UHGV virus genome: UHGV-1754446
DNA length: 20,188 nt
Direction: 5' to 3' (one strand)
Source: a virus
The notes under the pieces are model-generated. The model was not told the origin of the DNA and did no database searches. It saw only the letters and a list, made by a program, of their open reading frames with translations. Made by a program: the position numbers and the translations under genes. Below, in pieces: positions 1 through 20,188 of this stretch. Every line of letters starts with the position of its first letter. Position 1 is the first letter of the stretch.

Positions 1-85
1 AGTAAGATATAATCAAGAAGAGCATCTTCTGTATGTCAGCAACTATACTTGTAAAGCCGATGATAGCATACTTTATGAAATAAGT

Positions 86-4571: not shown

Positions 4572-4573
4572 TT

Positions 4574-5308
4574 ATGTCAGAAAAAATTAGCCAAATTCAG
4601 ATTAACGCCGACGTCAGAGATATAGAAGACGCGCAGGCATTACACAAAGGTGATAGTTTAGGCACAATAAATGGACAGTCTTTTAATGAAGGTAATGACT
4701 TAAACATTGAAGTTGGTACCAATGATTACAATGCCCTTAAAAACAAGCCACAAATAAACGGACATGAGTTGTCTGGGAATAAATCAGCAAAAGATTTAGG
4801 CTTACAAGAAGCAGGTGACTATGTAACTCCCGAAGATATACCCGATGTGAGCGAACTGGCAACAAAGACAGAATTGGCAGAAGGACTGGAAGGCAAGCAG
4901 CCAAAGGGTGATTATGCCACAAAGGCAGAAATACCAGATGTGAGTGGATTTATTACCTCTTCACAAGCGGAAGAAAAATATCAGCCGAAAGGAACTTATG
5001 TCACCACGACTGAACTATCTAAAAAGGCAGATAAAATCGCAACCGAAAATGTAGCCGAAACTACAAAGGAATTGCAACCGAACAAGTATTACATATTTGG
5101 CGAAGTTGCCACACTTACCATAACTCTTGCAGCAGGAGAAGAAAATGTCCTTGCTGAATACATGTTTGAGTTTACAAGCGGCACAACTCCAACAATATTG
5201 TCACTGCCCGAGGACGTTAAATGGATAGGTGAAAGCACGATTGAGGCAAGCAAGACATATCAAGTGAGCATCGTCAATAATATAGCAGTCATGGGAGGTG
5301 CAGCATGA
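4574..5308 (+). CDS. Tail fibre-like repeat protein (distal fibre / receptor-binding candidate)
   Basis: ATG 4574, in frame with a TTG at 4568 that overlaps the upstream stop. Fibre-type motifs DYNALKNKPQINGHELSGNKSAKDLGL and repeated IPDVS...QPKGDY[AV]T / YQPKGTYVT. Low-GC segment. Confidence 0.75.
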   Translation: MSEKISQIQINADVRDIEDAQALHKGDSLGTINGQSFNEGNDLNIEVGTNDYNALKNKPQINGHELSGNKSAKDLGLQEAGDYVTPEDIPDVSELATKTELAEGLEGKQPKGDYATKAEIPDVSGFITSSQAEEKYQPKGTYVTTTELSKKADKIATENVAETTKELQPNKYYIFGEVATLTITLAAGEENVLAEYMFEFTSGTTPTILSLPEDVKWIGESTIEASKTYQVSIVNNIAVMGGAA

Positions 5309-5994
5309 GCATATACAGACGCAGGCTTATGATAGCCAACACACTTAAAAAGAGTGACAGCAACATAAATTATCCTGGACTTATTGCAGCATGGTCGGCA
5401 GCAGGAAAGAGCAATGACGATGCTGATAGAAACGTGTTGCACGATTTGACGGGTAATGGGCTTGACATTACGCTGAACGGCTTTGCGTTCAATACAGAAG
5501 GAAGTGGCTATGGACATCCCGAATACCCCGATGCTCTTGTCTTTGACGGAGTGGATGATTACGGTATTAATGAGGAAATGCCGATATTGACTGATTATAC
5601 GGTTATTGTTAAGAGAGAAATATTTAGTGGCGGATTATATTCTCATGTAATCGGAAAACGTACAGGCTCTATACCGGGAGCTTTTTGGTTTGAAAGAGGT
5701 AAAGGAGATACTCATAGCTTTGGAATGGCTAATTCAATCAATATATTAAATGAAAGTATATCTTGGCAGTCCACGACAAGCTATAACGGGACACCTATAG
5801 AAAAAGGTGAAGCTGAGGATATTCATGAATTAACGATAGGTGTAGCAAGCAAAACATATCCAGATTTTAGGGGTATGGCTTTCTACTCCGCCTACCTCTT
5901 TGACCGCTCATTGGGTGAGCAGGAGATAAAGTCATTTATTAGAAAGTATATAGACGCAGACTATCTGTTACCGAGTGAACAAACAACAGAATAA
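5305..5994 (+). CDS. LamG/concanavalin-A-like lectin-fold protein (likely distal tail / adhesin component)
   Basis: ATGA start-stop overlap with the upstream gene; LVFDGVDDYG and the surrounding beta-rich sequence resemble LamG-type jelly-roll domains common in phage receptor-binding modules. Family assignment is from motif reading only. Confidence 0.7.
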   Translation: MSIYRRRLMIANTLKKSDSNINYPGLIAAWSAAGKSNDDADRNVLHDLTGNGLDITLNGFAFNTEGSGYGHPEYPDALVFDGVDDYGINEEMPILTDYTVIVKREIFSGGLYSHVIGKRTGSIPGAFWFERGKGDTHSFGMANSINILNESISWQSTTSYNGTPIEKGEAEDIHELTIGVASKTYPDFRGMAFYSAYLFDRSLGEQEIKSFIRKYIDADYLLPSEQTTE

Positions 5995-5999
5995 AGAAT

Positions 6000-6656
6000 A
6001 TGAGATTTATTATAGCAACAATAGCACAAGCAAAGGCGCACGGAATTGAGATTATATCGACAATGCGCCAATCAGTGGATAAGACACAAGTAGTGTTCCA
6101 CGAAGAATATGTAAAGAACATTGACGAATTTAATGCCTTAAAGAGGTATGAATTTGATGATGCTGAATTTACAGACCTTATGGCAAGTGAAGCATGGACA
6201 CACGGAGAAGATTATGTGCAGCCAAATGAGGACTTTGCAAAGGTATTAGCCATGCAGATATTGACAGCAGACACAAAGGCGCAGATAAACACCATGTCGC
6301 TGTCTAACAACGAGGCTCTGAAAGTTAAGGAGTTTTATCCCGAATGGAAAGAAGGAATTGACGTCAACAAAGGCGAAAAGTACAACTGTGACGATGACCT
6401 TTGGGAAGCACTTACAACGCATAAGACGCAGGCGAATTGGCGTCCGTCTTTGGAAACCGCATCTATATGGAAACATATTGACGAGGAACATGAGGGCACA
6501 GAGGACGACCCGATACCATACGCACCGCCTATGGAGTTGTTCAACGGTAAATATTACACGCAAGACGAGGTAAAATACAGGTGTACCCGTGACAGCGGAA
6601 TACCTTTGTCACAGAACCTGAGTGAACTTGTGGGATTATATGTGGAACTTGTTTAA
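6000..6656 (+). CDS. Hypothetical protein (acidic, 218 aa) after the fibre genes
   Basis: Long ORF with ATG at 6000, 5 nt after the upstream stop; no recognisable motif. Its position after the tail fibres is compatible with a fibre-assembly or accessory protein, which is speculation. Confidence 0.65.
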   Translation: MRFIIATIAQAKAHGIEIISTMRQSVDKTQVVFHEEYVKNIDEFNALKRYEFDDAEFTDLMASEAWTHGEDYVQPNEDFAKVLAMQILTADTKAQINTMSLSNNEALKVKEFYPEWKEGIDVNKGEKYNCDDDLWEALTTHKTQANWRPSLETASIWKHIDEEHEGTEDDPIPYAPPMELFNGKYYTQDEVKYRCTRDSGIPLSQNLSELVGLYVELV

Positions 6657-10997: not shown

Positions 10998-11201
10998 TCA
11001 GCCATCTGGGAACAGTCTTTCGTAGAACTCTCCCTGCCGTCGCACCAAAGCTTCCCCATAGTCCAACCCGTAAACATCGGCATCGTGCCTTGCTATGCGT
11101 CGCACACGAGCCTGTGCCGAGCGCGGACAATGTATGGCAATCAGATGCTCTGCCTCGGCAAACAGACGGGCGGAGTATTCATCATTTGGCATCTGTGTCA
11201 T
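10998..11201 (-). CDS. Small GC-rich protein (67 aa) with strong Shine-Dalgarno
   Basis: AAGGAGG lies 5 nt upstream of the ATG at 11201 on the minus strand; no motif recognised. It converges on the + strand gene, with stop codons 2 nt apart. Confidence 0.4.
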   Translation of the reverse strand: MTQMPNDEYSARLFAEAEHLIAIHCPRSAQARVRRIARHDADVYGLDYGEALVRRQGEFYERLFPDG

Positions 11202-11565
11202 CAGATTCCTCCTTTTCTGAGTTTATAGATACGAACAATCTCTCGTAGTCATCACAACTGATTTCAAAGCAGTTCTGACTTATTACTCCGTCAGAATCCC
11301 CGAAAACGTAAAACGGGGTATACGGACTGTATGTCTTCAGGACACCCACATCCTTTTTGTTGTCCTGCCTGTGTCTGATATAGAACCAGTAATGAGGTCT
11401 TTTGTAACCGACACACCATAGCAGCATAAGGACAAACAACAAGAAGAAAAAACAGAAAAACCATTTCGGCAGGAAAACGTCAATCAGAAAGAATGTAACC
11501 CATGCCGTTACCATTACGGCGAAAGCCTCAAAAGATGTCTTGTAATCAAAATTTTTCATTTTCAT
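11182..11565 (-). CDS. Small integral membrane protein
   Basis: Hydrophobic segments FAVMVTAWVTFFLIDVF and FFCFFFLLFVLMLLWCVGY. Preferred start is the ATG at 11565 (MKMKNFDYK); the ORF track extends to 11592, which would overlap the upstream gene by 20 nt. Confidence 0.6.
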   Translation of the reverse strand: MKMKNFDYKTSFEAFAVMVTAWVTFFLIDVFLPKWFFCFFFLLFVLMLLWCVGYKRPHYWFYIRHRQDNKKDVGVLKTYSPYTPFYVFGDSDGVISQNCFEISCDDYERLFVSINSEKEESDDTDAK

Positions 11566-11572
11566 AATATGT

Positions 11573-12127
11573 TTAATATTTCTTATTCCCATGCTTAAAT
11601 GGGCGGAGTCTGTTATAGCGCATCTTCTGCTCGACGTAGAAGTCGATGTCGATATCGTTTTGGTGGCAGAATAAGATAATGAGGGCTACAGTGAGATTGA
11701 TTTTTTCGCAAAGGGCTTCCTTATATAAACAAAGTCCCTCACAAAGATGGTACATGACGACGGGGAATGGCTCATTAATGAATTTTGCGTCTGAAGCAAG
11801 AAACTCGTCAACGTAATGCAGGGATATTCCGCGCAGTGCAGCCAAGTCCAAACAGCGTATGATGATGTCGCTAAGTTCATCCTCAACCGAGTTTTTGACG
11901 TGTGTCTCAAATTCATACTTAAATACAACGTCGTCATCGGCGTATGTTCCAAGTAATGCTTTGAAAAGGTCAATGTCCGTGTGCCTGTCCTTGCGGTCTG
12001 CCTGTACAGCTTCAGATATCTCAGTAATGATAAGCATCAAATAAGTTTCGTCAGGCAGTTCTTCATCGTGCCATCCGTGCGTCTTTGCGGTCTCAAAAAC
12101 TGCTTTTGATAATTTAGTCAAATCCAT
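11573..12127 (-). CDS. MazG-like (all-alpha) nucleoside triphosphate pyrophosphohydrolase
   Basis: Acidic motifs in MazG-like spacing: LMLIITEISEAVQADRKD (E..E) and EDELSDIIIRCLDLAALRGISL (E..D, with the L.LA...GI.L helix), plus a C-terminal K..YNRLRP tail. Family assignment is from motifs only. Confidence 0.55.
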   Translation of the reverse strand: MDLTKLSKAVFETAKTHGWHDEELPDETYLMLIITEISEAVQADRKDRHTDIDLFKALLGTYADDDVVFKYEFETHVKNSVEDELSDIIIRCLDLAALRGISLHYVDEFLASDAKFINEPFPVVMYHLCEGLCLYKEALCEKINLTVALIILFCHQNDIDIDFYVEQKMRYNRLRPFKHGNKKY

Positions 12128-12180
12128 ACTACTTATATTTTATTTTTAGGCATTTAATGCTTAGTGTTAATATCTGTATA

Positions 12181-12927
12181 TCACTGCGACGCGCACTCGC
12201 TTTCAAGCTCGTTCCAATCCTCGTCGGTAATGTATTTGCGGCATTCAGGATTAAGCTTCAACGCCTCATAGCCGACACGGTTGAGGAAACGCTCGCTCGT
12301 CAGCTTCTTCTCTATGATACGGAAGGCGAGCATGGCGTTGGCGTCCTTGTTCAGGTCTATGGTTATCCCGTCCTCGGTCTTGCATATCATGTCCGCAGCC
12401 TGCTCAAAATGGTAGAGGGTGCGTGACAGCCGCGCAGGATTCATGTATTTGTCAAAATGAATGCCGGGCGCGGCTTCGTCAGCCGTCTTTATCTGCACAT
12501 CGTAAAGATGTACCGCGTATGCCAGAAGATTGCGGGCGGTCTCGACATAGGACTTAAGCTCCGTTTCGGTCTGCCTGTACTTGTCGAGCAGCGACTTTAT
12601 GGAGAAGCGCAGGATGTCGACATGCGGCTGTATGTCCTCCTCCACTGTGTCAAGATAGTCATAGAAGAGCTGCGTGCGGTCTCCGAAGTTCTGGATGTGA
12701 AGCTTCTCGTAGGCGTAGTACGCCCTCTCCGCTTCCCTGATGTGACGCTTCAGAGTGAAACGGTAGTACGGTGTCTTCCGTACTCTCTCTATGGCGTCGA
12801 ACATTGTCTTGCCCGCCACTGTGTTGGCGGCTCCCATAACAAGGTTGACGAGTGAGTTGAGACGCTCGAACACCTCCATCGCGCGCTGGCTGCTCACTGC
12901 CGTAGCCTGTCGTACGTATGCTGTCAT
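12181..12927 (-). CDS. Hypothetical protein (248 aa)
   Basis: Long ORF in the operon, with an ATGA overlap to the downstream gene at 12924-12927. No motif recognised. Confidence 0.75.
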   Translation of the reverse strand: MTAYVRQATAVSSQRAMEVFERLNSLVNLVMGAANTVAGKTMFDAIERVRKTPYYRFTLKRHIREAERAYYAYEKLHIQNFGDRTQLFYDYLDTVEEDIQPHVDILRFSIKSLLDKYRQTETELKSYVETARNLLAYAVHLYDVQIKTADEAAPGIHFDKYMNPARLSRTLYHFEQAADMICKTEDGITIDLNKDANAMLAFRIIEKKLTSERFLNRVGYEALKLNPECRKYITDEDWNELESECASQ

Positions 12928-13184
12928 TGCTGACCTCCTTTCTTCAAATCATTCAAAGCCTTGTCATTGCAGCTTTTACAAAACAATTTATTGAGAGTTC
13001 CTTTTAGCATGACTAAATAGACATCATCGTCATCCTTGAACTTGCGGTTGCAATTAAAACAAAGCCTTTGAACATAAAGCCCTATACTTTCTCTCGACTT
13101 GCGGAACTGCCAGAATTTCAAGAATGGCTTATCAACAGCGTTTAGTACCTCGTATTCACGTTTGGTGATTTTCACTACTTTCAT
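12924..13184 (-). CDS. Small Zn-ribbon-like protein (CxxC ... CxxC)
   Basis: 86 aa with CFNCNRK ... CKSCND; ATGA-type overlap with neighbours on both sides. Confidence 0.65.
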   Translation of the reverse strand: MKVVKITKREYEVLNAVDKPFLKFWQFRKSRESIGLYVQRLCFNCNRKFKDDDDVYLVMLKGTLNKLFCKSCNDKALNDLKKGGQQ

Positions 13185-13555
13185 TTTATACCTCCTTTCA
13201 GTAGCTCTGGGTTGTCGTGGATGTTGCCGATTATCGTTGCTTTATCGGTAGGAAGGAAGCCTAATCTTTCAATACCTCCGATAAAAGAGCATTCAGAATC
13301 ACTATATTCCACATCCACAATATCTCCGTCTGGAAATTGAATAATATCCCCTTCGTAAATCTCCTTCCCCTTTTTATCATACAAGCCTGTGAACTGGCTT
13401 ACGGTGGAGGGGGCGATTTCTCGTTTCCACACGGCATTAGAGCTGTCGCTCTTTTCGAGAATGTTGCAGTCTCCGTCCGCCCATATTAAAAGCGAACCAT
13501 AGCACCACTCATCGTTTGCAAGGCGTTTGCCTCTGAACTTGATTGCTCGTTTCAT
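13181..13555 (-). CDS. YopX-family phage protein
   Basis: N-terminal IKFRGKRLANDEWCYGSL and C-terminal IGNIHDNPELL match the YopX signature (KFR.W ... YG ... GNI[HY][DE]NPELL). Confidence 0.8.
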   Translation of the reverse strand: MKRAIKFRGKRLANDEWCYGSLLIWADGDCNILEKSDSSNAVWKREIAPSTVSQFTGLYDKKGKEIYEGDIIQFPDGDIVDVEYSDSECSFIGGIERLGFLPTDKATIIGNIHDNPELLKGGIK

Positions 13556-13863
13556 GACCGCACCTCCTTTCCGTCGGACAGAAGGTCGTCAAGATAGGCG
13601 AACTTGTCAACCTCTCCCCATAATCGTTCAAACGACAGGTCGCGCAGGTCTTTGTAGACAGCGGCATTCCCGTTCTTGAATAAGACGAGTGTCTTGCGCT
13701 TAGGTTGGCAAGATACAGTGCCGTTGTGCCACACGGCGTTGATGCGCCAGTTGGCACCATCTATAAACCCATGTTCATAATACGGCACGTATTTTGGATT
13801 GAAGATGCTGTTGTCAATAACACAACTTTCTGTTGCCGCCTTTTCAATCTGTTCTCTTGTCAT
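13552..13863 (-). CDS. Hypothetical protein (103 aa)
   Basis: ORF coupled to the downstream YopX gene by a 4-nt overlap. No motif recognised. Confidence 0.7.
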   Translation of the reverse strand: MTREQIEKAATESCVIDNSIFNPKYVPYYEHGFIDGANWRINAVWHNGTVSCQPKRKTLVLFKNGNAAVYKDLRDLSFERLWGEVDKFAYLDDLLSDGKEVRS

Positions 13864-13896
13864 ATCTTATTTGTATTAATATTCTTTCCCTCCATT

Positions 13897-14061
13897 TTAT
13901 CTTGTGATTTTAGAGGAAATTTTCCTTGTATTTCCTTTGTTTTCCTTTGCCAAACACTCATTGCCACATCTTCTGCCCACGTCGTACTTATCGCACCATC
14001 CGTCTCCGTAGAAGCCTTCGTTAATGAAGTGGATACATGAGCCGCAGTGTCTTGCTTTCAT
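13897..14061 (-). CDS. Small Cys-rich protein (54 aa, putative Zn-binding), coupled to the PAPS-reductase-like gene
   Basis: Not in the ORF track (below 60 aa). Own translation: MKARHCGSCIHFINEGFYGDGWCDKYDVGRRCGNECLAKENKGNTRKISSKITR. Its ATG overlaps the stop of 14058..14975 (ATGA). Confidence 0.4.
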   Translation of the reverse strand: MKARHCGSCIHFINEGFYGDGWCDKYDVGRRCGNECLAKENKGNTRKISSKITR

Positions 14062-14975
14062 TTTTCGTCGTCTTTAAATTCAAATTTCTGTTGCAGGAAC
14101 TCGTCAGCGTAGAACTGCTTGTAGCTCTTGTCGCTTATCCACCACCTAAAGCCTGTTTCAGCGTCGTTGAAATTGTGGTCGATATATCCGTTGTCTATCA
14201 GCCATTGGATTGTCTTTATCCAATTGCGTTTGACGTGCGGCCAGCGTTTAGCATCTTCCTTCTTTATCCGTGCGTTCGACATAGGGCAACAGATGCAGCC
14301 AATGCGTGTATAACCCTCGTCGTAGAGTTCGCAGTGTGGTATGCCGTTCATGTTAAGGAACTCCCACACGTCGCGCTCCGTCCAATAGATTATGGGCGAT
14401 ACAAGGATTTTGTCCTTACCGCCGACACACGCAACCATGCTCTCCTCATGTTCGCTCCATTGGTCAAAGGTTTCCTCATTGCGCTTGCCCTTTATCTCTG
14501 TGGATATTTCCTCACGTTTTGCACGCCGTGCGCTTTCTTCTTTTCTCACACCGATAAGTGTCACCTTGCCAACGCCTGACGTTTCCTTGAACTCGGCACA
14601 ACACCAACGCAAAGTCCTTGTCGGCAAGATGTGCTTTTTCTTCGCCATTTCGTAAATGCTCATCCGTGGTTTGATTAGCTCCACATCGGGGTATTGCGTC
14701 TTGACGAAGCGGATGACTTCGGGCGGGTCTATGCTCGTAAGGTTCATGTGAGCCTTGAAGCGGACACCGGCCAGCTTTGCGACATGGTAGAGGCATTGGC
14801 TGTCCTTGCCGCCACTGAACGCAAGGTAAAAGCCGTTTTCGGGGTCGAGGCGCAACGCCATTTTCTCCGACTTCCGCAAAAGTTCGACGGAGTGTTCCAG
14901 CTTCCTTGCAAGCGGACGGCTTACCTTTGACATTACGGTGTCGTGGTCAAGCAGTATTATTTCACACGCTTTCAT
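14058..14975 (-). CDS. PP-loop ATP-pyrophosphatase of the PAPS-reductase / TtcA-like (adenine-nucleotide alpha-hydrolase) superfamily
   Basis: PP-loop motif FYLAFSGGKDSQCLYHVA (SGGxDS), plus Cys clusters RWCCAEF and GCICCP that could ligate Fe-S or Zn, as in DndC/TtcA/CysH-like enzymes. I cannot assign the exact subfamily without a profile search. Confidence 0.85.
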   Translation of the reverse strand: MKACEIILLDHDTVMSKVSRPLARKLEHSVELLRKSEKMALRLDPENGFYLAFSGGKDSQCLYHVAKLAGVRFKAHMNLTSIDPPEVIRFVKTQYPDVELIKPRMSIYEMAKKKHILPTRTLRWCCAEFKETSGVGKVTLIGVRKEESARRAKREEISTEIKGKRNEETFDQWSEHEESMVACVGGKDKILVSPIIYWTERDVWEFLNMNGIPHCELYDEGYTRIGCICCPMSNARIKKEDAKRWPHVKRNWIKTIQWLIDNGYIDHNFNDAETGFRWWISDKSYKQFYADEFLQQKFEFKDDEK

Positions 14976-15100
14976 TTTGCCTTGTCTTTAAGTTTGAATA
15001 TAAATTCCATCAGTTGTTTGTTCTGCTGGCGGTACCTGTCAACCTCGGCTTGCAGGAAGTCAATCTCGTTGTGGTACGCCTCACGCTCAAAGTCAGTCAT
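14972..15100 (-). CDS. Small helical protein (42 aa), translationally coupled
   Basis: Own translation: MTDFEREAYHNEIDFLQAEVDRYRQQNKQLMEFIFKLKDKAK. Its stop overlaps the ATG of the PAPS-reductase-like gene. Confidence 0.35.
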   Translation of the reverse strand: MTDFEREAYHNEIDFLQAEVDRYRQQNKQLMEFIFKLKDKAK

Positions 15101-15106
15101 CGTTCA

Positions 15107-15253
15107 CTAATCGTCTACAATGGCTTTTGCTAAACCGAAGAGAAGGATATATATTCCTAACATGAGCAGTACCCATGGGAAACTTGTCAACATCCATATA
15201 GAGGCTGCCACGCAAAGTGCACCGGCATGGATGATTAGTTCAGTTCTGTTCAT
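15107..15253 (-). CDS. Small hydrophobic membrane peptide (48 aa), translationally coupled
   Basis: Own translation: MNRTELIIHAGALCVAASIWMLTSFPWVLLMLGIYILLFGLAKAIVDD. Its ATG overlaps the stop of the radical-SAM gene (ATGA). Confidence 0.35.
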   Translation of the reverse strand: MNRTELIIHAGALCVAASIWMLTSFPWVLLMLGIYILLFGLAKAIVDD

Positions 15254-16155
15254 TGCTTCATATTTTTAAGTTTGTAACTATTCTCATTAAGCCACTTTTG
15301 GAAATACCATAACTGACCGCATCCGCCACCTATATCGTCTTGCCCTGCCGGGTTAAATACTCTCGTATTAAAACCTACGTCATTCATCTTTGAATTAAAG
15401 TCACGGATTAAGTCAAGTTGTCGCTGTATTGATGAATGTACACTTTCATCCTTTTCGCAAATAACAGACAAAGTGACCTCCCATATATCAGGGTTAAATA
15501 ATTCAGAGAGCCTCATAGCATCTTCCATATCATTATTCCCGACATGTACGCAATAATTAAAGAAAGGCTTTCTTCCGACATAAGAAGCCCAAAACTCACC
15601 CGTAGAAGCTATTTGCCGAAGTGTTGACGTATTCGTTGCTATAAGTTTCTTCCTTTTTTCATCTGTACTTTCATGTACTGAAAATTGAAGACCTACTTTA
15701 TCTATTTCTTTCGATAGTGCAATAAAATCAGACATGTATAAATACATCATGTGAGGGGCAGAAGTGCTTACAAGAAGTTGTGCGTTTGGATATTTCACAT
15801 GTAGACTTTCTATTGCAGGCTGCAATGCCGAGTAGTTGTAAAAAGGCTCTCCCATGCTCATAAACATAATTTGGAACTTTTTAATGTCATCAGTGCGGCA
15901 ATCAATAGTAGATAATGCCCCATCAATCTGTTGTATTATTTCGTCAGTAGAAAGATTTCTGACAAAAAATTTGCCTGTTCCGCAGAAAGAACATCCAACT
16001 GGACAACCGCTTTGAACCGAACAACATATAACTGTCCTTTTTTTGTATTCTCCATATCTATAAAGAACAGTTTCAGCAATAGCATTTGGCTTGTCCCACT
16101 CAAACACGAATTTCTTTACATTCGTATCACTTGATTCAAATACTTTTGTTTTCAT
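15250..16155 (-). CDS. Radical-SAM methyltransferase of the RlmN/Cfr family (N-terminally minimal form)
   Basis: RTVICCSVQSGCPVGCSFCGTGKFFVRNLSTDEIIQQI aligns with the E. coli RlmN region [38 protein letters not shown] (CxxxCxxC plus the upstream mechanistic Cys). MFMSMGEP matches VMMGMGEP, STSAP matches STSG, FSVHESTDE matches ISLHAPNDE, and the C-terminal DDIGGGCGQL matches DDIDAACGQL (second catalytic Cys). At 301 aa it lacks the ~80-aa N-terminal domain of RlmN. Confidence 0.88.
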   Translation of the reverse strand: MKTKVFESSDTNVKKFVFEWDKPNAIAETVLYRYGEYKKRTVICCSVQSGCPVGCSFCGTGKFFVRNLSTDEIIQQIDGALSTIDCRTDDIKKFQIMFMSMGEPFYNYSALQPAIESLHVKYPNAQLLVSTSAPHMMYLYMSDFIALSKEIDKVGLQFSVHESTDEKRKKLIATNTSTLRQIASTGEFWASYVGRKPFFNYCVHVGNNDMEDAMRLSELFNPDIWEVTLSVICEKDESVHSSIQRQLDLIRDFNSKMNDVGFNTRVFNPAGQDDIGGGCGQLWYFQKWLNENSYKLKNMKQ

Positions 16156-16361
16156 TTGCCGTATGTTTTTGTTTTCTTGGGTTTGTAACTATCGGTTTCT
16201 TCGTCCCACTCCACGCAGTCGGGGCAGTAGAGTTTGCCGTCGATTTCTTCCCAATCGCACATCTTCGCCATATACCTTGCCATACCTTCACTAAATTCAT
16301 AGCCATGCTTACTTCCGCACCCGTCGCACACGGCTTGGTACATCGTCACTTTCTGTTTCAT
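16152..16361 (-). CDS. Small Zn-ribbon protein (CDGCGS ... CPDC)
   Basis: 69 aa with two CxxC pairs; its stop overlaps the ATG of the radical-SAM gene. Confidence 0.65.
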   Translation of the reverse strand: MKQKVTMYQAVCDGCGSKHGYEFSEGMARYMAKMCDWEEIDGKLYCPDCVEWDEETDSYKPKKTKTYGK

Positions 16362-16363
16362 AA

Positions 16364-16645
16364 TCAGTAATATCTTATTACATCTTGATTCATTAAAGCT
16401 TTCATAAAAGACTCCTTTTCTTCATCTGTGGCTTTCCTTACATTCGCACCCCAACAGAAGTTTCCCCATCCCGTACTTTTCTTGATTATACCGTCATTCC
16501 ATCCAATCAAAATGCCGTATCCGTCACCATCTACATATCCGTTATGGATGAATACCCTTTGATTTTCGGGGTGGTATTTCGCAGATTCTTCATTTGTTGG
16601 AATTCCATATAGGAACTCACCCACGTTATATTCACTTCTTTTCAT
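16364..16645 (-). CDS. Hypothetical protein (93 aa)
   Basis: ORF within the coupled operon. No motif recognised. Confidence 0.65.
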   Translation of the reverse strand: MKRSEYNVGEFLYGIPTNEESAKYHPENQRVFIHNGYVDGDGYGILIGWNDGIIKKSTGWGNFCWGANVRKATDEEKESFMKALMNQDVIRYY

Positions 16646-16848
16646 ATCTTTACATATTGGCTACACGCCTGTTGGTTGCACTTAACTTTCTGTAAACAAT
16701 TGAACGTGCGGTTACTCTTGCGCACACGGCAGTAGGATATTACTTTGCTTCCACATTCCCACCGCTGGCGGTGAATACAAGTGCGGCACGTTTCTAAGGT
16801 TGATTCTTGCGGCTGAATGGTGTCAGCATTGCTAAATAAATCACTCAT
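16642..16848 (-). CDS. Small Cys-rich protein (68 aa)
   Basis: CRTCIHRQRWECGSKVISYCRVRK ... C...C; 4-nt overlaps with both neighbours. Confidence 0.55.
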   Translation of the reverse strand: MSDLFSNADTIQPQESTLETCRTCIHRQRWECGSKVISYCRVRKSNRTFNCLQKVKCNQQACSQYVKI

Positions 16849-17666
16849 AGCAGATCCTTTGCTTCTTCAATCAGGTCACCAAATGTGTCTAAGAACTGGT
16901 CGCGGACTTCGGGGGTGGGGAAAGCCAATATCCGGCTCACCGTCCAATAAGAGTTCTTTTCTTTCTTATTTGCTTTGTAACTAATGCAATATTTCATTTT
17001 ATCATCCGTCCAATACGGCTTCCACCCCAATTGCTTCCACCAGGCGTTGCGGCAGACGAGAAGCTGGCAGAGGGCGAGCATGGGCTTGCCGAGACCTTGC
17101 GGCAACATGTTTCTGTCGCTATCACCAAACAGACGTCCGTCATCGGACAATTCGCTTATACTGCATTTATAAACTTCGCTATCTTCTTCTATCAATTCCA
17201 CGTCATTGATGCTACACAGGCATTTCAGCCACGTCTTGGGCAACCCTTTCTTCTTCTCTTTCAGCACGATGTTGCCTCGTTCGTCCAGGTGGTCGAACTC
17301 CCAGCCGTCGGGGACTGTAATTGTCTTTTCGTTTGTTTCCATATCTTCTTTGTTTTGTTGTTTAACTTCGATGTCTACGGTGTTGTTGACTGCGTTGTAG
17401 TATGCGAACGGTTCTTTGGACAGGACAACAGGGAATTTCACTCCTGCATACCGCTGCACAATGTGGTCGTAAAGAGGGTAAGGGTCGCCGACGGGTTCGA
17501 GCTTCTTGCATTTCGCTTTCACCCAACAATCTCTATTTCCATAGAAACTTGCACAATTTAAATCTTTAAATGATGCACAATCTTTGCAATAATCATACAT
17601 ATCATCTTTCACGCACTGGTACCACTCTCCGTTGTGCTCAAATATCTCTCCTATCTTCCGTTCCAT
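16845..17666 (-). CDS. Hypothetical protein with Cys-rich N-terminus (273 aa)
   Basis: Long ORF; N-terminus CKDCASFKDLNCASFYGNRDCWVKAKC suggests a metal-binding module. No family recognised. Confidence 0.75.
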   Translation of the reverse strand: MERKIGEIFEHNGEWYQCVKDDMYDYCKDCASFKDLNCASFYGNRDCWVKAKCKKLEPVGDPYPLYDHIVQRYAGVKFPVVLSKEPFAYYNAVNNTVDIEVKQQNKEDMETNEKTITVPDGWEFDHLDERGNIVLKEKKKGLPKTWLKCLCSINDVELIEEDSEVYKCSISELSDDGRLFGDSDRNMLPQGLGKPMLALCQLLVCRNAWWKQLGWKPYWTDDKMKYCISYKANKKEKNSYWTVSRILAFPTPEVRDQFLDTFGDLIEEAKDLL

Positions 17667-17668
17667 AG

Positions 17669-18223
17669 CTATTCTTGTTCTTGTTCGTTGTTTTCTTGCT
17701 TGTCATCTTCCTCTTCCTCATTGTCGGACATGAAGTAGGCCACGTCGTCAAAGGGGATGTTCTTGCGCTCCTTTTCGATTTTCACCGCCAAAACATTTTT
17801 GAGGATGAAGTCTTTGAGGTCGGTGTAGTCGGAGGGGATGTAGCCGTTTTCCAAAATACGGATGTAAGCGTCGTCAATGTACTTGTCGATGTCGATGCGC
17901 GGGTGTTCCTCGGCAAGCTCTTTCTTGGCTCGGATAAGGCCGAGCAGGAGGGCATTCTTCTTTGCGCGGTAAGCCTTGTTCTTGGATATGTAGCGTATGT
18001 CTGCTATCTCGCGGTGCGACTCGATGGCGCACTCTATCCTCGCCTCGGATATGGCGCATTTGACACCGCTCTTCTTTTGGAGGTAATAGTGCCAAATTCC
18101 CCTGTCCTTATGCAGGCTTCGGGTGAGCAGCCTCGCACAGGCTATCCGTCCGTTGTGGAAGCGGACGAACAGGTGGTGAGGAAAGTCGCTGTCCGTGAAG
18201 ACTTGTGCCTTTAATTGTTTCAT
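17669..18223 (-). CDS. Hypothetical protein with acidic C-terminal tail (184 aa)
   Basis: Long ORF; the C-terminus SDNEEEEDDKQENNEQEQE is highly acidic. No family recognised. Confidence 0.75.
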   Translation of the reverse strand: MKQLKAQVFTDSDFPHHLFVRFHNGRIACARLLTRSLHKDRGIWHYYLQKKSGVKCAISEARIECAIESHREIADIRYISKNKAYRAKKNALLLGLIRAKKELAEEHPRIDIDKYIDDAYIRILENGYIPSDYTDLKDFILKNVLAVKIEKERKNIPFDDVAYFMSDNEEEEDDKQENNEQEQE

Positions 18224-18225
18224 AG

Positions 18226-18657
18226 CTATTCTGCCTTTGAGTTTTTGAAAATGTCACGTATCTGCCCGGCTACCTTTTCGGCTGCCTCACGGGTGCGGAA
18301 GTAGTTGCCTACGTCATGCAACACCATGTCAGACCGTTCTCCATAGTCCTTATATTGGAGGGTTGTAAAGTCATTGTTCACAATGTAATACAGACCACCT
18401 TTCTCCGCCCTCCACCTCGGCAAGTCCTCGATGCACTTCTTCTCGGCGTTCCACCGCTTGCCCTGTTTGGCGAGAGCGTCGAAGAGGCGTCGCTTCTCTG
18501 CTTCGGTGGCGGGGTGGTAATAGTCGGTATACCCCCAACCTTCCTCACTGAAAACCGTTTGAAGACGTTGCCCGTGAAGTGCTGCGTAAGTCATAATGCC
18601 TCCAATCTTATTAGTCCCGGCATAGATGGCGATTGTATCCATACCGTTAAATTTCAC
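18226..18657 (-). CDS. Hypothetical protein (138-143 aa)
   Basis: Long ORF; start is the GTG at 18657 or the ATG at 18642. No motif recognised. Confidence 0.7.
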   Translation of the reverse strand: MKFNGMDTIAIYAGTNKIGGIMTYAALHGQRLQTVFSEEGWGYTDYYHPATEAEKRRLFDALAKQGKRWNAEKKCIEDLPRWRAEKGGLYYIVNNDFTTLQYKDYGERSDMVLHDVGNYFRTREAAEKVAGQIRDIFKNSKAE

Positions 18658-18808
18658 CGTCTTTCGGCATGTAGCTCTTTACCAATCCAACGGTGACATT
18701 GAGTGTACCGTTGTCAACTTTAGCGTCAATTGTTCCCACTCTCGCGCCTTTCGGCAGCGTAATCCTGTATGTCTTTTTCATTTTCACTATTCTTTTAATT
18801 TACATTAA

Positions 18809-18946
18809 CTAACTATCCCTACCCCACTTCCACGCGGATATAAGGGCTCGGTAGACCATCTGCTTCTCATCCCTGTCGCAGAAGTCGAACGATGCCGCCA
18901 GCTTAACGAGCCACAAGGAAGACGATGGGTGTGCTGTCTGTGTCAT
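18809..18946 (-). CDS. Small ORF (45 aa) with Shine-Dalgarno
   Basis: GGGAGGA lies 9 nt upstream of the ATG at 18946; translation MTQTAHPSSSLWLVKLAASFDFCDRDEKQMVYRALISAWKWGRDS; below the ORF-track cutoff. Confidence 0.25.
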   Translation of the reverse strand: MTQTAHPSSSLWLVKLAASFDFCDRDEKQMVYRALISAWKWGRDS

Positions 18947-18951
18947 GTCAA

Positions 18952-19587
18952 TCAGTCCTCCCTCACTTCTATAGGCTCACCGTCAACTAACTTATACCAA
19001 GTGTCGGACTTTATTGTCTCTCCGTCTACCTTGAATGCCTTGACATCCTTTATAGGATACGTTTCTCCGTTCCAACTGTCACGTTCCGTAAGGACTATCC
19101 AGCAGCCGAGAGCACCTTTCGCCTTGCTGCCCTTGCCTGTCACTATGGCAACAGAATCCTTACCATCAACACTTGCGGCGGAGCAGTCGCCCGTGTTGGT
19201 GGCGGCTGACCAGTCGCCCGTGTTCGATTGTTTATTATCATCCCATTTTACATGGTCCATGATGAACTTGACTCCTGCTTTAATCAGTCCCTGTAAGCCT
19301 ATTTCGGCTTTGATTTTCAAATGGGTACAACATATTTTATCAGGTTTAGACTTGTCAAAATCACCGCTGCCTTCAACTTCACAAAACCTGTTCGGTGTTC
19401 CCGTTTCGTCGCACGGAGCGTAAAAGCCCAGCACATCCATAGGGCATTCGCAATAATGGAAACCGGTATTGCAGGCGACCGCCTTGTCTGTTGAATACTC
19501 CTTGCCGACTTCGTACTGGAAGCCGCGGCACTTCAGGTCTTTGTCAAAACCTTTATAGCCATGAATCGTTTCTGTCTCTTTTTTCAT
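18952..19587 (-). CDS. Hypothetical phage protein with Cys-rich N-terminal domain and TGD[WC]SAA repeats
   Basis: 211 aa; N-terminus YKGFDKDLKCRGFQYEVGKEY ... CNTGFHYCECP; C-terminal half with repeated NTGDWSAA / NTGDCSAA and Gly/Lys-rich stretches. No family recognised. Confidence 0.75.
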   Translation of the reverse strand: MKKETETIHGYKGFDKDLKCRGFQYEVGKEYSTDKAVACNTGFHYCECPMDVLGFYAPCDETGTPNRFCEVEGSGDFDKSKPDKICCTHLKIKAEIGLQGLIKAGVKFIMDHVKWDDNKQSNTGDWSAATNTGDCSAASVDGKDSVAIVTGKGSKAKGALGCWIVLTERDSWNGETYPIKDVKAFKVDGETIKSDTWYKLVDGEPIEVRED

Positions 19588-19599
19588 AGTTTTGAATTT

Positions 19600-19782
19600 T
19601 CATTTGTTACGCAACTGTATGAAGCCGTCGGCTTCGTATTTTTTCAGTTCGGCAAGTCCGTCATCCGTAACGGTGACGATATTCTCTCCGTTTACCGTCA
19701 TGCCTTCTACGATGCCGAACCGCTGCCGGATATTGTCTATGATGCGGGCGTTCTCCGTCACCCAGTAGATTGTAATTCTCAT
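19600..19782 (-). CDS. Small protein (60 aa)
   Basis: ATG 19782 is preceded by AGGAG at 6-nt spacing. The longer ORF-track version from 19890 has an Arg-rich, non-coding-looking N-terminus and overlaps the upstream gene. Confidence 0.5.
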   Translation of the reverse strand: MRITIYWVTENARIIDNIRQRFGIVEGMTVNGENIVTVTDDGLAELKKYEADGFIQLRNK

Positions 19783-19870
19783 ATTGACTCCTGTTCTTCG
19801 TTTTCTACTTGCGCTATCGCGCGGAATATCTCGTAAACAACCTGTGGCACCATTGCGTTGCCCAACGCCT

Positions 19871-20188
19871 TTATGGATTCTGCCCGCCATCGAGGAAAGG
19901 TGATACCAGCCAGTCTGCCGGGAAACCCATCATCTCCTGTACAAACAAGGGATTGAGTCGGGAAGTCGCGCCATCGGCTTGCGGGCAGTTCTTCATAATT
20001 TCCGCCACAAGCCCGTGCCTGTTCTTCTGTGACGGTGGGAATGTGGAGTTTTTCCCGTTGGTCGCCTCCGGTGTCGGAAGCAGTCCGTGGAAATCCATGT
20101 AATCCATCAGACCGTTCGGTCTTGTCTCCCCGTTCGCCCTGCTGTGGAACGTGTCGCCGCCCGCCGCCTTCAAATCCTTTACCCTCCC
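19871..20188 (-). CDS. 3' end of a larger gene continuing beyond the window; C-terminus resembles DNA methyltransferase tails
   Basis: The frame is open from the window edge (20188) down to the stop at 19871; the ORF-track start at 20173 is only an internal TTG. The motifs HGLLPTPEATNGKN and NPLFVQEMMGFPADW resemble the C-terminal region of phage DNA methyltransferases (cf. the GFP motif of C5-MTase motif IX). This is from memory of motifs, with the N-terminal catalytic motifs outside the window. Confidence 0.55.
   Translation of the reverse strand, partial: GRVKDLKAAGGDTFHSRANGETRPNGLMDYMDFHGLLPTPEATNGKNSTFPPSQKNRHGLVAEIMKNCPQADGATSRLNPLFVQEMMGFPADWLVSPFLDGGQNP

What the first reader, a model, noticed from the sequence alone, without database searches (positions are those of the whole stretch)
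13897..16361. Phage-encoded minimal RlmN/Cfr-like radical-SAM methyltransferase translationally coupled to a PAPS-reductase/TtcA-like PP-loop enzyme and small Zn-ribbon proteins
Seen in sequence: the radical-SAM gene 15250-16155 retains both mechanistic cysteines of RlmN/Cfr (the Cys just upstream of CxxxCxxC, and the C-terminal GGGCGQL) but lacks the N-terminal accessory domain. It is linked through ATGA overlaps via two small ORFs to a PP-loop (SGGKDS) enzyme with Cys clusters (14058-14975), and both are flanked by small Cys-rich proteins (13897-14061, 16152-16361). Established knowledge: RlmN/Cfr enzymes methylate adenosine C2/C8 in rRNA and tRNA, and Cfr confers multidrug ribosomal-antibiotic resistance; PP-loop enzymes of this superfamily perform thiolation or sulfur chemistry on nucleic acids or nucleotides (TtcA, DndC, CysH). 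Inference: a phage nucleic-acid modification module acting on host tRNA/rRNA or phage DNA, potentially for translation hijacking or anti-defence. A Cfr-like gene on a mobile element is also relevant to resistance dissemination.
Basis: partly seen in the sequence, partly recalled or inferred. Interest (0 to 1): 0.75.

Follow-up and report, generated by a model that had tools for sequence, protein, structure and literature searches.

The report
Stand-alone phage RlmN-like methylase cassette
A temperate gut phage carries a shortened relative of the RNA-methylating enzymes RlmN/Cfr as a free-moving gene cassette, and the PAPS-reductase gene beside it is an independent passenger, so neither the proposed two-enzyme modification module nor the antibiotic-resistance concern is supported.

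Summary
The 301-aa radical-SAM protein (15250-16155, minus strand) has an RlmN fold. It keeps the CX3CX2C cluster motif and both mechanistic cysteines, and it lacks the N-terminal HhH2 RNA-binding domain.

It is neither RlmN nor Cfr. It belongs to a large, uncharacterised, mostly phage-borne third clade that is about 25% identical to both and scores far below every curated cutoff.

The proposed module is not supported:
- The PAPS-reductase gene lies near the radical-SAM gene in only 3 of 38 related viral loci, and one of those is the source contig.
- None of 19 PAPS-reductase relatives carries the radical-SAM gene.
- A sibling phage with about 95% identical flanks has unrelated small genes in the radical-SAM slot.
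- Three of ten contexts encoding the identical radical-SAM protein lack the PAPS reductase and both Cys-rich ORFs.
- The radical-SAM gene is a compositional outlier (GC3 0.31 versus 0.55-0.72).
- ATGA overlaps and small Cys-rich ORFs are generic in this operon.

Elsewhere the family recurs beside tRNA arrays, tRNA-repair genes and non-orthologous NAD-salvage genes. It is occasionally fused to NUDIX or dGTPase-type HD hydrolases.

The most likely function is radical C-methylation of an RNA adenosine with altered substrate recognition. A nucleotide substrate is not excluded.

The parts
15250..16155 (-). Short (301 aa) class-A radical-SAM methylase of an uncharacterised, phage-associated RlmN/Cfr-like third clade
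   Evidence: - TIGR00048 RlmN scores 97.8 bits (cutoff 290), covering model positions 73-342/355.
- The AF2 model has pLDDT 85. Its top six Foldseek hits are all RlmN (E 1e-13 to 5e-17), and the next hit is at 5e-6.
- Invariant C44, C51, C55, C58 and C279.
- The clade is monophyletic in 200/200 bootstraps.
- GC 0.366 and GC3 0.31, against flanks of 0.46-0.47.
15107..15253 (-). 48-aa hydrophobic ORF, the only gene that always accompanies this radical-SAM allele
   Evidence: It overlaps the radical-SAM stop codon by ATGA. It is present directly downstream in all 10 contexts that encode the identical radical-SAM protein. It lies inside the swapped segment relative to L059. No homolog was detected in more distant radical-SAM loci.
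15101..16173 (.). Exchangeable cassette (radical-SAM gene plus 48-aa ORF), delimited by comparison with sibling phage L059
   Evidence: blastn of the window against L059 gives flanks of 95-97% identity on both sides and no DNA similarity for 15101-16173. In that position L059 has four small unrelated ORFs and a diverged TM ORF.
14058..14975 (-). PAPS-reductase-superfamily PP-loop enzyme with CC...CxxC cysteines (BrxP/DndC-like catalytic domain), an independent cassette
   Evidence: - PF01507 E=3e-22, phrog_424 E=4e-39, PADLOC BrxP E=2e-16.
- Below the CysH, DndC and TtcA cutoffs.
- Present at 92% identity in L059 without the radical-SAM gene.
- Absent from L091-L093, which carry the identical radical-SAM protein.
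- GC3 0.63.
13897..14061 (-). 54-aa Cys-rich ORF that co-varies with the PAPS-reductase gene, not with the radical-SAM gene
   Evidence: It overlaps the PAPS-reductase stop codon by ATGA. It is present with the PAPS reductase in L059 and L084-L090, and absent with it in L091-L093. It matches no family.
14972..15100 (-). 42-aa coiled-coil-like ORF upstream of the PAPS reductase
   Evidence: ORF. It is 90% identical in L059, where it is separated from the PAPS reductase by a 915-bp insertion. Only a weak DivIC match.
16152..16361 (-). 69-aa Zn-ribbon ORF (CxxC...CxxC), independent of the radical-SAM gene
   Evidence: It is 98% identical in L059, which has no radical-SAM gene. It is absent upstream of the identical radical-SAM gene in L089 (replaced by an IS transposase) and in L091-L093. 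Only weak Zn-ribbon and DUF7569 hits.

Best explanation
The region is a mosaic accessory stretch of the early operon of a temperate phage, probably of a Bacteroidales host. Independently acquired cassettes happen to lie side by side there.

The radical-SAM gene, together with its 48-aa downstream ORF, is a recently acquired, self-contained cassette. It encodes a class-A radical-SAM methylase of a distinct phage-associated clade. From the conserved catalytic apparatus I infer that it uses the RlmN/Cfr mechanism:
1. SAM methylates C279.
2. A 5'-deoxyadenosyl radical generated at the C51/C55/C58 [4Fe-4S] cluster abstracts H from the methyl-Cys.
3. The resulting radical adds to C2 or C8 of an adenine.
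4. C44 resolves the covalent enzyme-substrate intermediate.

The protein keeps the beta-sheet extension, the barrel and the C-terminal loop. In RlmN/Cfr these hold the U-turn loop that carries the target adenosine. It has lost the HhH2 domain that reads the L-shape of tRNA or 23S rRNA. The most likely substrate is therefore an adenosine in an RNA loop, recognised differently from RlmN/Cfr. A host or phage tRNA anticodon loop is the best guess.

The PAPS-reductase-like enzyme and its 54-aa partner form a separate cassette. Relatives of that cassette usually sit beside DNA methyltransferases. It is not functionally coupled to the methylase.

Shown: fold, catalytic residues, clade, and mobility and independence of the cassettes. 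Inferred: chemistry, RNA substrate, biological role.
For: Independence of the cassettes:
- A PAPS-reductase homolog lies within 6 kb of the radical-SAM gene in 3 of 38 viral loci, one of which is the source contig itself.
- The radical-SAM gene is in 0 of 19 non-self PAPS-reductase loci.
- L059 has 95-97% identical flanks but an unrelated 1073-bp segment in place of the radical-SAM cassette.
- Contigs with the identical 301-aa protein lack the PAPS reductase, the 54-aa ORF and the 69-aa ORF in L091-L093, and have an IS element upstream in L089.
- GC3 is 0.31 for the radical-SAM gene against 0.63 for the PAPS reductase and 0.55-0.72 for neighbours. In other phages the gene's GC matches its flanks.
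- No partner is conserved outside one phage group.

Enzyme identity:
- family and PDB sequence matches; invariant C44/C51/C55/C58/C279, E28, MGEP; RlmN fold; three beta strands precede the barrel; separate clade.

RNA-related context elsewhere:
- tRNA genes lie within 6 kb in 9 of 42 loci, with arrays of 23 tRNAs in L019 and L041.
- Among the neighbours are CCA-adding enzymes, RtcB, Tpt1, a Glu/Gln-tRNA synthetase domain and QueC.

Roles of the HhH2 and radical-SAM domains in RNA binding: PMC13001441.

Partners of the PAPS reductase:
- DNA methyltransferases or ASCH proteins.
Against: - No tRNA gene is in the window, so here the target would have to be host-encoded.
- Loss of the RNA-binding HhH2 domain could equally mean the substrate is not RNA.
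- Rare fusions to MutT-type NUDIX and dGTPase-type HD hydrolases, and repeated adjacency to NAD-salvage genes, point toward nucleotide chemistry.
- The catalytic cores are on average mildly acidic, with mean net charge -4.5. This is weak evidence.
- The 'NLIPxNP' motif of RlmN/Cfr is replaced by 'LSVICEKDE', and there are extra invariant cysteines C202 and C233. The chemistry may therefore differ in detail.
- No experimental data exist for any member in the searched literature.
- The tRNA and NAD associations may simply reflect clustering of auxiliary genes in large phages.
Confidence: 0.6

Rival explanations
1. The radical-SAM methylase, the PAPS-reductase/PP-loop enzyme and the flanking Zn-ribbon ORFs form one translationally coupled nucleic-acid modification module, for example combined methylation and thiolation.
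For: - The genes are co-oriented in one operon, and most junctions are ATGA overlaps.
- Seven of ten contexts of the identical radical-SAM protein also carry the PAPS reductase.
- Two more distant viral loci, L006 and L023, have a PAPS-reductase-family gene (31% and 25% identical) within 1-2 kb of the radical-SAM gene.
Against: - 35 of 37 other radical-SAM loci lack a nearby PAPS reductase, and 19 of 19 other PAPS-reductase loci lack the radical-SAM gene.
- The sibling phage L059 keeps the PAPS reductase and the Zn-ribbon ORF but not the radical-SAM gene.
- L091-L093 keep the identical radical-SAM gene but none of the other three genes.
- The two enzymes have very different codon GC.
- ATGA overlaps (9 of 18 junctions) and Cys-rich ORFs (4 of 19 genes) are generic in this operon.
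- Homologs of the two enzymes in cultured phages fall in disjoint sets of records.
Confidence: 0.05
2. The gene is a Cfr-type resistance determinant, or a plain RlmN replacement. It would methylate A2503 of host 23S rRNA at C8 or C2.
For: It shares the fold and both mechanistic cysteines with RlmN/Cfr. Automatic pipelines name it '23S rRNA (adenine2503-C2)-methyltransferase'.
Against: - Cfr models score 69.8-76.6 bits against cutoffs of 530-550. RlmN scores 97.8 against 290.
- The protein is outside the Cfr clade and about 25% identical to all reference sequences.
- It lacks the HhH2 domain, whose positively charged region is described as crucial for rRNA binding and which anchors Cfr at the H90/H91/H92 junction (PMC13001441).
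- The plasmid search returned only canonical RlmN/Cfr genes, all below 60% identity (listed rows 24.8-37%, annotated rlmN or cfr); no close relative of the short clade was found.
Confidence: 0.07
3. The short clade methylates adenine in a free nucleotide or dinucleotide, such as (d)ATP, ADP-ribose or NAD+, or in a DNA precursor or phage DNA, rather than in RNA. It would serve nucleotide-pool or NAD-linked counter-defence, or DNA hypermodification.
For: - The RNA-binding HhH2 domain is lost.
- There are fusions of the short methylase to NUDIX (P0130, P0219) and to a dGTPase-type HD domain (P0204; PDB 2dqb E=1e-23). All keep the catalytic cysteines.
- NAD-salvage genes of non-orthologous types lie next to the gene in at least 5 lineages: L003 (prs-like plus NAPRTase-like), L008 (NAPRTase plus NAD synthase), L021 and L024 (Nampt), and L080 (NAPRTase plus NMNAT).
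- NAPRTase is the most frequent Pfam family among the 150 neighbours scanned.
- In temperate phages the gene lies among DNA methylases.
Against: - No class-A radical-SAM methylase is known to act on small molecules or DNA (my knowledge of the family).
- The fusions are rare, with 1-2 members each.
- NAD-salvage genes, tRNA genes and nucleotide-metabolism genes often share auxiliary islands in large phages, so adjacency may be non-specific.
- The elements that hold the RNA U-turn in Cfr/RlmN are retained.
- The NARP papers do not mention such a gene.
Confidence: 0.2

Closest known systems
RlmN (E. coli YfgB; TIGR00048), the dual-specificity 23S rRNA m2A2503 / tRNA m2A37 radical-SAM methylase
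   Same: - Partial TIM-barrel radical-SAM fold with the beta-sheet extension.
- CX3CX2C motif, the C118- and C355-equivalent cysteines, and the ETV and MGEP motifs.
- R40 sits at the position of the Arg in RlmN's 'DRATLC', where Cfr has Trp101.
- RlmN is the best-scoring family and the best PDB match.
   Different: - No HhH2 N-terminal domain, about 85 aa.
- Only about 25% identity, and 97.8 bits against a cutoff of 290.
- 'NLIPxNP' is replaced by 'LSVICEKDE' and 'EYV' by 'NYC'. There are extra invariant cysteines C202 and C233, and an insertion after 'STSAP'.
- The gene is carried by phages as a mobile cassette.
Cfr / Cfr(B,C,D,E), the 23S rRNA m8A2503 methylases that confer PhLOPSA resistance
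   Same: The same mechanistic class and catalytic cysteines, and residence on mobile DNA.
   Different: - Outside the Cfr clade (196/200 for Cfr, 200/200 for the short clade).
- 70-77 bits against cutoffs of 530-550.
- Lacks the HhH2 domain and the alpha5/beta6 loop extension that Cfr uses on rRNA.
- No evidence of C8 regiochemistry or of resistance.
Phage PAPS-reductase-like proteins (phrog_424) and the PAPS-reductase domains of BrxP/SspD/DndC, which perform DNA phosphorothioation
   Same: The neighbouring gene 14058-14975 has the PP-loop SGGKDS motif, CC...CxxC cysteines and a PF01507 match. It also matches phrog_424 (4e-39) and BrxP (2e-16). Its relatives sit beside DNA methyltransferases.
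   Different: - It has only the catalytic domain. There is no DUF4007 region of BrxP, and no BrxC/DndD/SspC-type ATPase in the window, which PMC12914056 reports as required for phosphorothioation.
- It scores below the DndC, SspD and CysH cutoffs.
- Its function in phages is untested.

Membership tests
Class-A radical-SAM methylases (RlmN/Cfr mechanistic class) | CX3CX2C [4Fe-4S]/SAM motif in a partial TIM barrel | tested here: met
   C51/C55/C58 are invariant. The AF2 model is closest to the RlmN structures.
Class-A radical-SAM methylases (RlmN/Cfr mechanistic class) | Two additional mechanistic cysteines: the methyl carrier in the C-terminal loop and the resolving Cys 7 residues before the cluster motif | tested here: met
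   C279 (GGGCGQL) and C44 align with E. coli C355 and C118, and are invariant across the clade.
RlmN (TIGR00048 / PRK11194) | Score at or above the curated equivalog cutoff | tested here: not met
   97.8 bits against 290, and 57.3 against 633.
RlmN and Cfr | N-terminal HhH2 RNA-binding domain that reads the L-shaped RNA | tested here: not met
   The match starts at model position 73 of 355. The alignment shows about 85 residues missing. The role of the domain is described in PMC13001441.
RlmN and Cfr | Methylation of A2503 (C2 or C8) and/or tRNA A37 | not testable with these tools
   This needs LC-MS of RNA after expression, or trapping of a C44A crosslink.
Cfr (NF000424, TIGR04432, PRK14453) | Curated cutoff and placement inside the Cfr clade | tested here: not met
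   76.6/530, 69.8/550 and 70.9/468 bits. In the NJ tree Cfr is monophyletic in 196/200 bootstraps and excludes the short clade, which is monophyletic in 200/200.
PAPS-reductase superfamily (PF01507) | PP-loop SGGxDS motif and a domain match above the gathering score | tested here: met
   SGGKDS is at residues 54-59. PF01507 scores 79.8 bits against 22.5.
CysH / APS reductase (assimilatory) | Equivalog or subfamily cutoff and a full-length match | tested here: not met
   TIGR00434 scores 49.7 against 165.1, and only residues 143-247 match.
TtcA / TilS PP-loop family (PF01171) | Significant match to ATP_bind_3 | tested here: not met
   E=0.077, 13.2 bits against 27.
DndC / SspD / BrxP phosphorothioation enzymes | Family cutoff plus an adjacent P-loop ATPase partner (DndD/SspC/BrxC) | tested here: not met
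   DndC scores 15.1 against 290.4. BrxP matches only its PAPS-reductase domain, positions 134-352 of 779. No ATPase was found among the window ORFs scanned. The requirement for an ATPase is from PMC12914056.
Conserved multi-gene 'modification module' (radical-SAM + PAPS reductase + Zn-ribbon ORFs) | Co-occurrence of the genes across related elements | tested here: not met
   Linkage is lost both at long range and among contigs that encode the identical radical-SAM protein.

The most novel reading that the evidence does not exclude
The phage-associated short RlmN-like clade is not an RNA methylase. It would be the first class-A radical-SAM enzyme to C-methylate adenine in a nucleotide-type molecule, such as (d)ATP, ADP-ribose or NAD+, or in a DNA precursor. 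It would work with nucleotide hydrolases and NAD-salvage enzymes as a counter-defence or DNA-hypermodification route. The evidence that leaves this open is the loss of the HhH2 domain, the NUDIX and dGTPase-type HD fusions, and adjacency to non-orthologous NAD-salvage modules in at least five lineages.
Probability: 0.15. Interest if true: 0.85.

Novelty: new variant of a known kind. Interest (0 to 1): 0.45.

Why it matters
RlmN and Cfr are the only two characterised class-A radical-SAM methylases. Both depend on an HhH2 domain to recognise their RNA substrate.

This work shows a large clade that lacks that domain, keeps the whole catalytic apparatus, and is spread mainly by phages. The word-index search returned 5,587 proteins at E<=1e-10. 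The 50%-identity library held 74 clusters at E<=1e-30. No characterisation was found in the searched literature.

Finding its substrate would either add a phage-encoded tRNA or rRNA modification to the list of host-takeover or counter-defence tools, or extend this radical chemistry to new substrates.

For surveillance, the result is reassuring. The gene should not be scored as a cfr-like resistance gene. It also shows why gene adjacency and ATGA overlaps in phage accessory regions should not be read as functional coupling without a conservation check.

Tried and rejected
- Megablast of window 11000-20188 against annotated phages found no match.
- Rfam on the whole window found nothing, and ARAGORN found no tRNA.
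- The promoter and terminator scan of 13500-17000 gave no more sites than shuffled sequence, so it does not delimit the cassettes.
- PADLOC had no hit for the radical-SAM protein or the small ORFs.
- PHROGs gave only a weak unknown-function family, phrog_24834, for the radical-SAM protein.
- The net charge and pI of the catalytic core, tried as a discriminator between RNA and small-molecule substrates, overlapped the RlmN/Cfr range and were inconclusive.
- Literature searches for phage RlmN-like enzymes, phage tRNA-modifying radical-SAM enzymes and 2-methyladenine in phages found no characterisation. The NARP1/2/3 papers do not mention the gene.
- The first bootstrap tree timed out and was redone with a faster distance routine.
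One literature query was malformed.
- I considered and rejected reading the two extra PAPS-reductase co-occurrences (L006, L023) as evidence for a module. Those PAPS reductases are only 25-31% identical to the window's. They sit in the same accessory region where this gene family is common in temperate phages.


Full report
**What is in the window.**
The window is part of a phage or prophage. The source contig is IMGVR_UViG_3300045988_136180, 42.9 kb. The plus strand carries tail-fibre genes, an endolysin and an HTH/ImmA-type repressor. From about 11.2 kb a divergent minus-strand operon of 19 mostly small genes runs to about 19.9 kb. It includes a MazG-like pyrophosphatase and a YopX-like gene. 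The finding lies inside this operon. No tRNA gene, no Rfam family and no close DNA match to annotated phages were found.

**Checking the observation.**
All ORFs are at the stated coordinates.

The 301-aa protein:
- It matches RlmN (TIGR00048, E=6e-28) and Cfr models, but only from model position about 73 onward. The scores are 97.8 bits against a cutoff of 290, and 70-77 bits against 468-550.
- Its best PDB sequence matches are RlmN from Sphaerobacter (6fz6, 2e-18), Cfr (9p0p, 1e-11) and E. coli RlmN.
- In an alignment with reference RlmN and Cfr proteins, C44 aligns with E. coli C118. C51/C55/C58 form the cluster motif. C279 in IGGGCGQLW aligns with C355. About 85 N-terminal residues are missing.
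- An AlphaFold model (pLDDT 85, pTM 0.85) shows three beta strands followed by a partial barrel. Its six best Foldseek hits in the PDB are all RlmN structures (E 5e-17 to 1e-13), and the next hit is at 5e-6.

The 305-aa protein:
- It has SGGKDS, a CC pair and GCICC. It matches PF01507 (3e-22), phrog_424 (4e-39) and the PAPS-reductase domain of BrxP (2e-16).
- It does not match TtcA/TilS (E=0.077), and it is below the CysH and DndC cutoffs.

The two flanking small ORFs each have five cysteines with CxxC pairs. The sequence facts therefore hold.

Two qualifications apply. One junction in the supposed chain of overlaps is a 6-nt gap. ATGA overlaps occur at 9 of the operon's 18 junctions, and 4 of its 19 genes are small Cys-rich ORFs. 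These features therefore do not single out the two enzymes.

**Is it a module?**
I tested linkage from both sides and at three evolutionary distances.

1. Far relatives of the radical-SAM gene.
   - The protein has about 50% identical homologs in cultured phages: Salmonella phage Arash, Stenotrophomonas ANB28 and BUCTxx99, Xanthomonas JGB6, several Vibrio phages and Aeromonas Ahp1. None has a PAPS reductase nearby.
   - PAPS-reductase homologs occur in a disjoint set of phages, infecting Clostridium, Bacteroides and Methanosarcina.
   - Among 38 viral-contig loci carrying the radical-SAM gene (48-100% identity), a PAPS-reductase homolog lies within 6 kb in three. One is the source contig. The other two carry PAPS reductases only 25-31% identical to the window's.
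   - The Zn-ribbon ORF and the two small linker ORFs were found only in the source contig.
   - All-against-all clustering of ORFs found no partner conserved outside one group of related large phages.

2. Relatives of the PAPS reductase.
   - Of 19 other viral loci with a PAPS reductase 46-92% identical, none has the radical-SAM gene.
   - Their recurrent upstream neighbours are an ASCH-domain protein or an N6/N4 DNA methylase.
   - In annotated phages the homolog sits between or near DNA methyltransferases.

3. Closest relatives.
   - Sibling phage L059 shares 95-97% DNA identity on both sides. It retains the Zn-ribbon ORF (98%), the PAPS reductase (92%) and the 54-aa ORF (87%).
   - In L059, window segment 15101-16173 (the radical-SAM gene plus the 48-aa ORF) is replaced by an unrelated segment encoding four small ORFs and a diverged TM ORF.
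   - Among ten distinct contexts that encode the identical 301-aa protein, seven have the PAPS reductase.
   - Three (L091-L093) lack the PAPS reductase, the 54-aa ORF and the 69-aa Zn-ribbon ORF. One (L089) has an IS transposase directly upstream.
   - Only the 48-aa hydrophobic ORF always follows the radical-SAM gene.

4. Composition.
   - The radical-SAM gene has GC 0.366 and GC3 0.31. The PAPS reductase has GC3 0.63, and other operon genes have 0.55-0.72.
   - In other phages the gene's GC matches its flanks. Low-GC large phages from the same metagenome carry 72-74% identical copies with GC 0.36-0.37.
   - The simplest reading is a recent transfer of the radical-SAM cassette into this temperate phage, next to a PAPS-reductase cassette that was acquired independently.

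**What the radical-SAM protein is.**
- It belongs to a large family of short proteins. The word-index search returned 5,587 proteins at E<=1e-10, and the best 120 are all 292-319 aa. The exhaustive search of the 50%-identity library found 74 clusters at E<=1e-30, followed by a tail of further short forms and then canonical RlmN/Cfr.
- Members occur on viral contigs of 20-355 kb and in MAGs of Muribaculaceae, Bacteroidales, Runella and Christensenella.
- In a neighbour-joining tree with four RlmN and three Cfr references, the short clade is monophyletic in 200/200 bootstraps and Cfr in 196/200. The window protein is 22-27% identical to every reference. It is therefore a third clade, not RlmN proper and not Cfr.
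- Clade-specific features are the missing HhH2 domain, 'LSVICEKDE' in place of 'NLIPxNP', 'NYC' in place of 'EYV', an insertion after 'STSAP', and invariant extra cysteines C202 and C233, with C45 nearly invariant.
- The recent Cfr-rRNA cryo-EM paper gives the domain roles. The HhH2 domain carries a positively charged region crucial for rRNA binding and contacts the H91/H92 backbone, which is equivalent to the tRNA acceptor stem and D-arm. The radical-SAM domain, the beta-sheet extension and the C-terminal loop hold H90, equivalent to the anticodon stem, and the U-turn that presents the target adenosine (PMC13001441).
- The phage clade keeps the second set of elements and has lost the first.

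**How it most likely works.**
Every catalytic element of the RlmN/Cfr ping-pong radical mechanism is invariant. I infer the same chemistry:
1. SAM methylates C279.
2. The radical generated at the cluster abstracts H from the methyl-Cys.
3. The resulting radical adds to adenine C2 or C8.
4. C44 resolves the covalent intermediate.

The substrate is not established. I favour an adenosine in an RNA loop, recognised without L-shape reading, for three reasons:
- The loop-holding elements are retained.
- The gene lies within 6 kb of tRNA genes in 9 of 42 loci. These include arrays of 23 tRNAs in L019 and L041, and the tRNA cluster of Stenotrophomonas phage ANB28.
- Among 150 neighbour proteins from 25 dereplicated loci there are CCA-adding enzymes (two loci), RtcB, Tpt1, a Glu/Gln-tRNA-synthetase domain and QueC.

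The window phage has no tRNA genes in the window, so the target there would be a host RNA. Possible roles are tuning decoding or protecting anticodon loops from host nucleases. Those roles are speculation.

**A rival that the data do not exclude.**
- The most frequent Pfam family among those 150 neighbours is NAPRTase (4 members). Pribosyltran (3), NAD synthase (2), isochorismatase (2) and NAMPT_N (2) also appear.
- The NAD-salvage genes next to the radical-SAM gene are of different, non-orthologous types:
  - a prs-like gene plus a NAPRTase-like gene directly upstream in Vibrio phages;
  - NAPRTase plus NAD synthase in the L008 group;
  - Nampt directly downstream in L021 and upstream in L024;
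  - NAPRTase plus an NMNAT-like gene directly after a radical-SAM-NUDIX fusion in L080.
- Three fusion architectures exist. Two have C-terminal MutT-type NUDIX domains (P0130 and P0219). One has a dGTPase-type HD domain (P0204; PDB 2dqb at 1e-23). All keep the catalytic cysteines. They are rare, with one or two members each, but P0204 was seen in two independent samples.
- Together with the loss of the RNA-binding domain, this leaves open a nucleotide, NAD-related or DNA-precursor substrate.
- Against this, such auxiliary genes tend to cluster in large phages, no class-A enzyme is known to use such substrates, and the charge comparison was inconclusive.

**The PAPS-reductase gene.**
It is a member of the very common phage family phrog_424, with an Fe-S-type CC...CxxC pattern. 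It resembles the catalytic domain of BrxP. It lacks BrxP's second domain and any BrxC/DndD/SspC-type ATPase, which the phosphorothioation literature reports as required (PMC12914056). Its 54-aa Cys-rich downstream ORF co-varies with it in this lineage. Its function remains unknown. Its usual company of DNA methyltransferases suggests a DNA-related role. Nothing links it to the radical-SAM enzyme.

**Comparison with known families, and novelty.**
Mechanistically the protein works like RlmN/Cfr. By membership it fails the curated cutoffs, the clade test and the domain architecture of both. Databases already label it '23S rRNA (adenine2503-C2)-methyltransferase'. I found no paper that characterises the short phage clade. 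I rate it a new variant of a known kind.

The finding as written, a coupled module relevant to resistance, is not supported. The residual interest is an abundant, mobile, HhH2-less class-A radical-SAM methylase of unknown substrate, with intriguing tRNA and NAD/nucleotide associations.

**Verdict.**
- Observation: partly confirmed. The sequence facts are true, but the juxtaposition is not more than chance.
- Interpretation: partly supported. The families are right, but the module and the Cfr relevance are wrong.
- Interest: 0.45.

Noticed in passing
window 15101-16173 compared with L059 2891-3963: The segment holding the radical-SAM gene and the 48-aa ORF, and the unrelated segment that replaces it in sibling phage L059, are both exactly 1073 bp. 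They lie between flanks of 95-97% identity. L059 also has a 915-bp insertion (a 190-aa ORF and others) between the 42-aa ORF and the PAPS reductase.
   Followed up: partly
L089 586-1647, upstream of the identical radical-SAM gene: An IS-type DDE transposase (DDE_Tnp_1) sits directly upstream of the radical-SAM gene. It takes the place of the Zn-ribbon ORF and the other upstream ORFs.
   Followed up: no
L003 2225-4900; L008 9594-12288; L021 6934-8430; L024 2178-3845; L080 3451-5374: NAD-salvage genes of different, non-orthologous kinds lie next to the short RlmN-like gene in at least five lineages. The kinds are prs-like plus NAPRTase-like, PncB-like plus NadE, Nampt, and NAPRTase plus NMNAT. 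The NARP papers I read do not mention this gene.
   Followed up: partly
P0130 (L080 2043-3449), P0219 (L083 6001-7395), P0204 (L081 724-3003): There are rare natural fusions of the short RlmN-like domain to MutT-type NUDIX domains and to a dGTP-triphosphohydrolase-type HD domain. All retain the catalytic cysteines.
   Followed up: partly
L002, L017, L019, L031, L040, L041 (tRNA genes); L021 146-1570 and L022 2471-3919 (CCA-adding enzymes): In several large phages the gene lies inside or beside tRNA gene arrays, with up to 23 tRNAs within 6 kb, and near tRNA maturation and repair genes. tRNA-Gln genes are frequent among the neighbours.
   Followed up: partly
window 15250-16155, residues C45, C202, C233: Beyond the five RlmN-type cysteines, the short clade has two further invariant cysteines (C202 in NYC, C233 in SVIC) and one nearly invariant cysteine (C45). 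C202 and C233 sit near the ends of two barrel strands that follow one another in the model. They could form an extra metal site or a redox pair.
   Followed up: no
window 13897-14061 and 14058-14975: The 54-aa Cys-rich ORF overlaps the PAPS-reductase stop codon. In this phage lineage it is present or absent together with the PAPS reductase, so it may be a small partner of that enzyme. No homolog was detectable beside more distant PAPS-reductase relatives.
   Followed up: partly
GenBank OR529408.1 (BUCTxx99) and OQ436456.1 (JGB6): In these records the homolog of the radical-SAM gene is annotated 'prohibitin family protein / SPFH domain protein'. This looks like a mis-annotation. ANB28 calls the homolog RlmN, and the Vibrio phage records call it 'radical SAM protein, partial'.
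   Followed up: no
window 1-3500 compared with 4500-6500: GC content drops from about 0.55-0.56 in the tail-fibre genes (86-3771) to about 0.41 in the following genes. This suggests further mosaicism in the structural and host-range module.
   Followed up: no
window 12924-13184 and 16642-16848: Two more small Cys-rich ORFs lie in the same operon. One is 86 aa with CxxC...CxxC, and the other is 68 aa with 7 Cys. This shows that such ORFs are a general feature of the region.
   Followed up: yes
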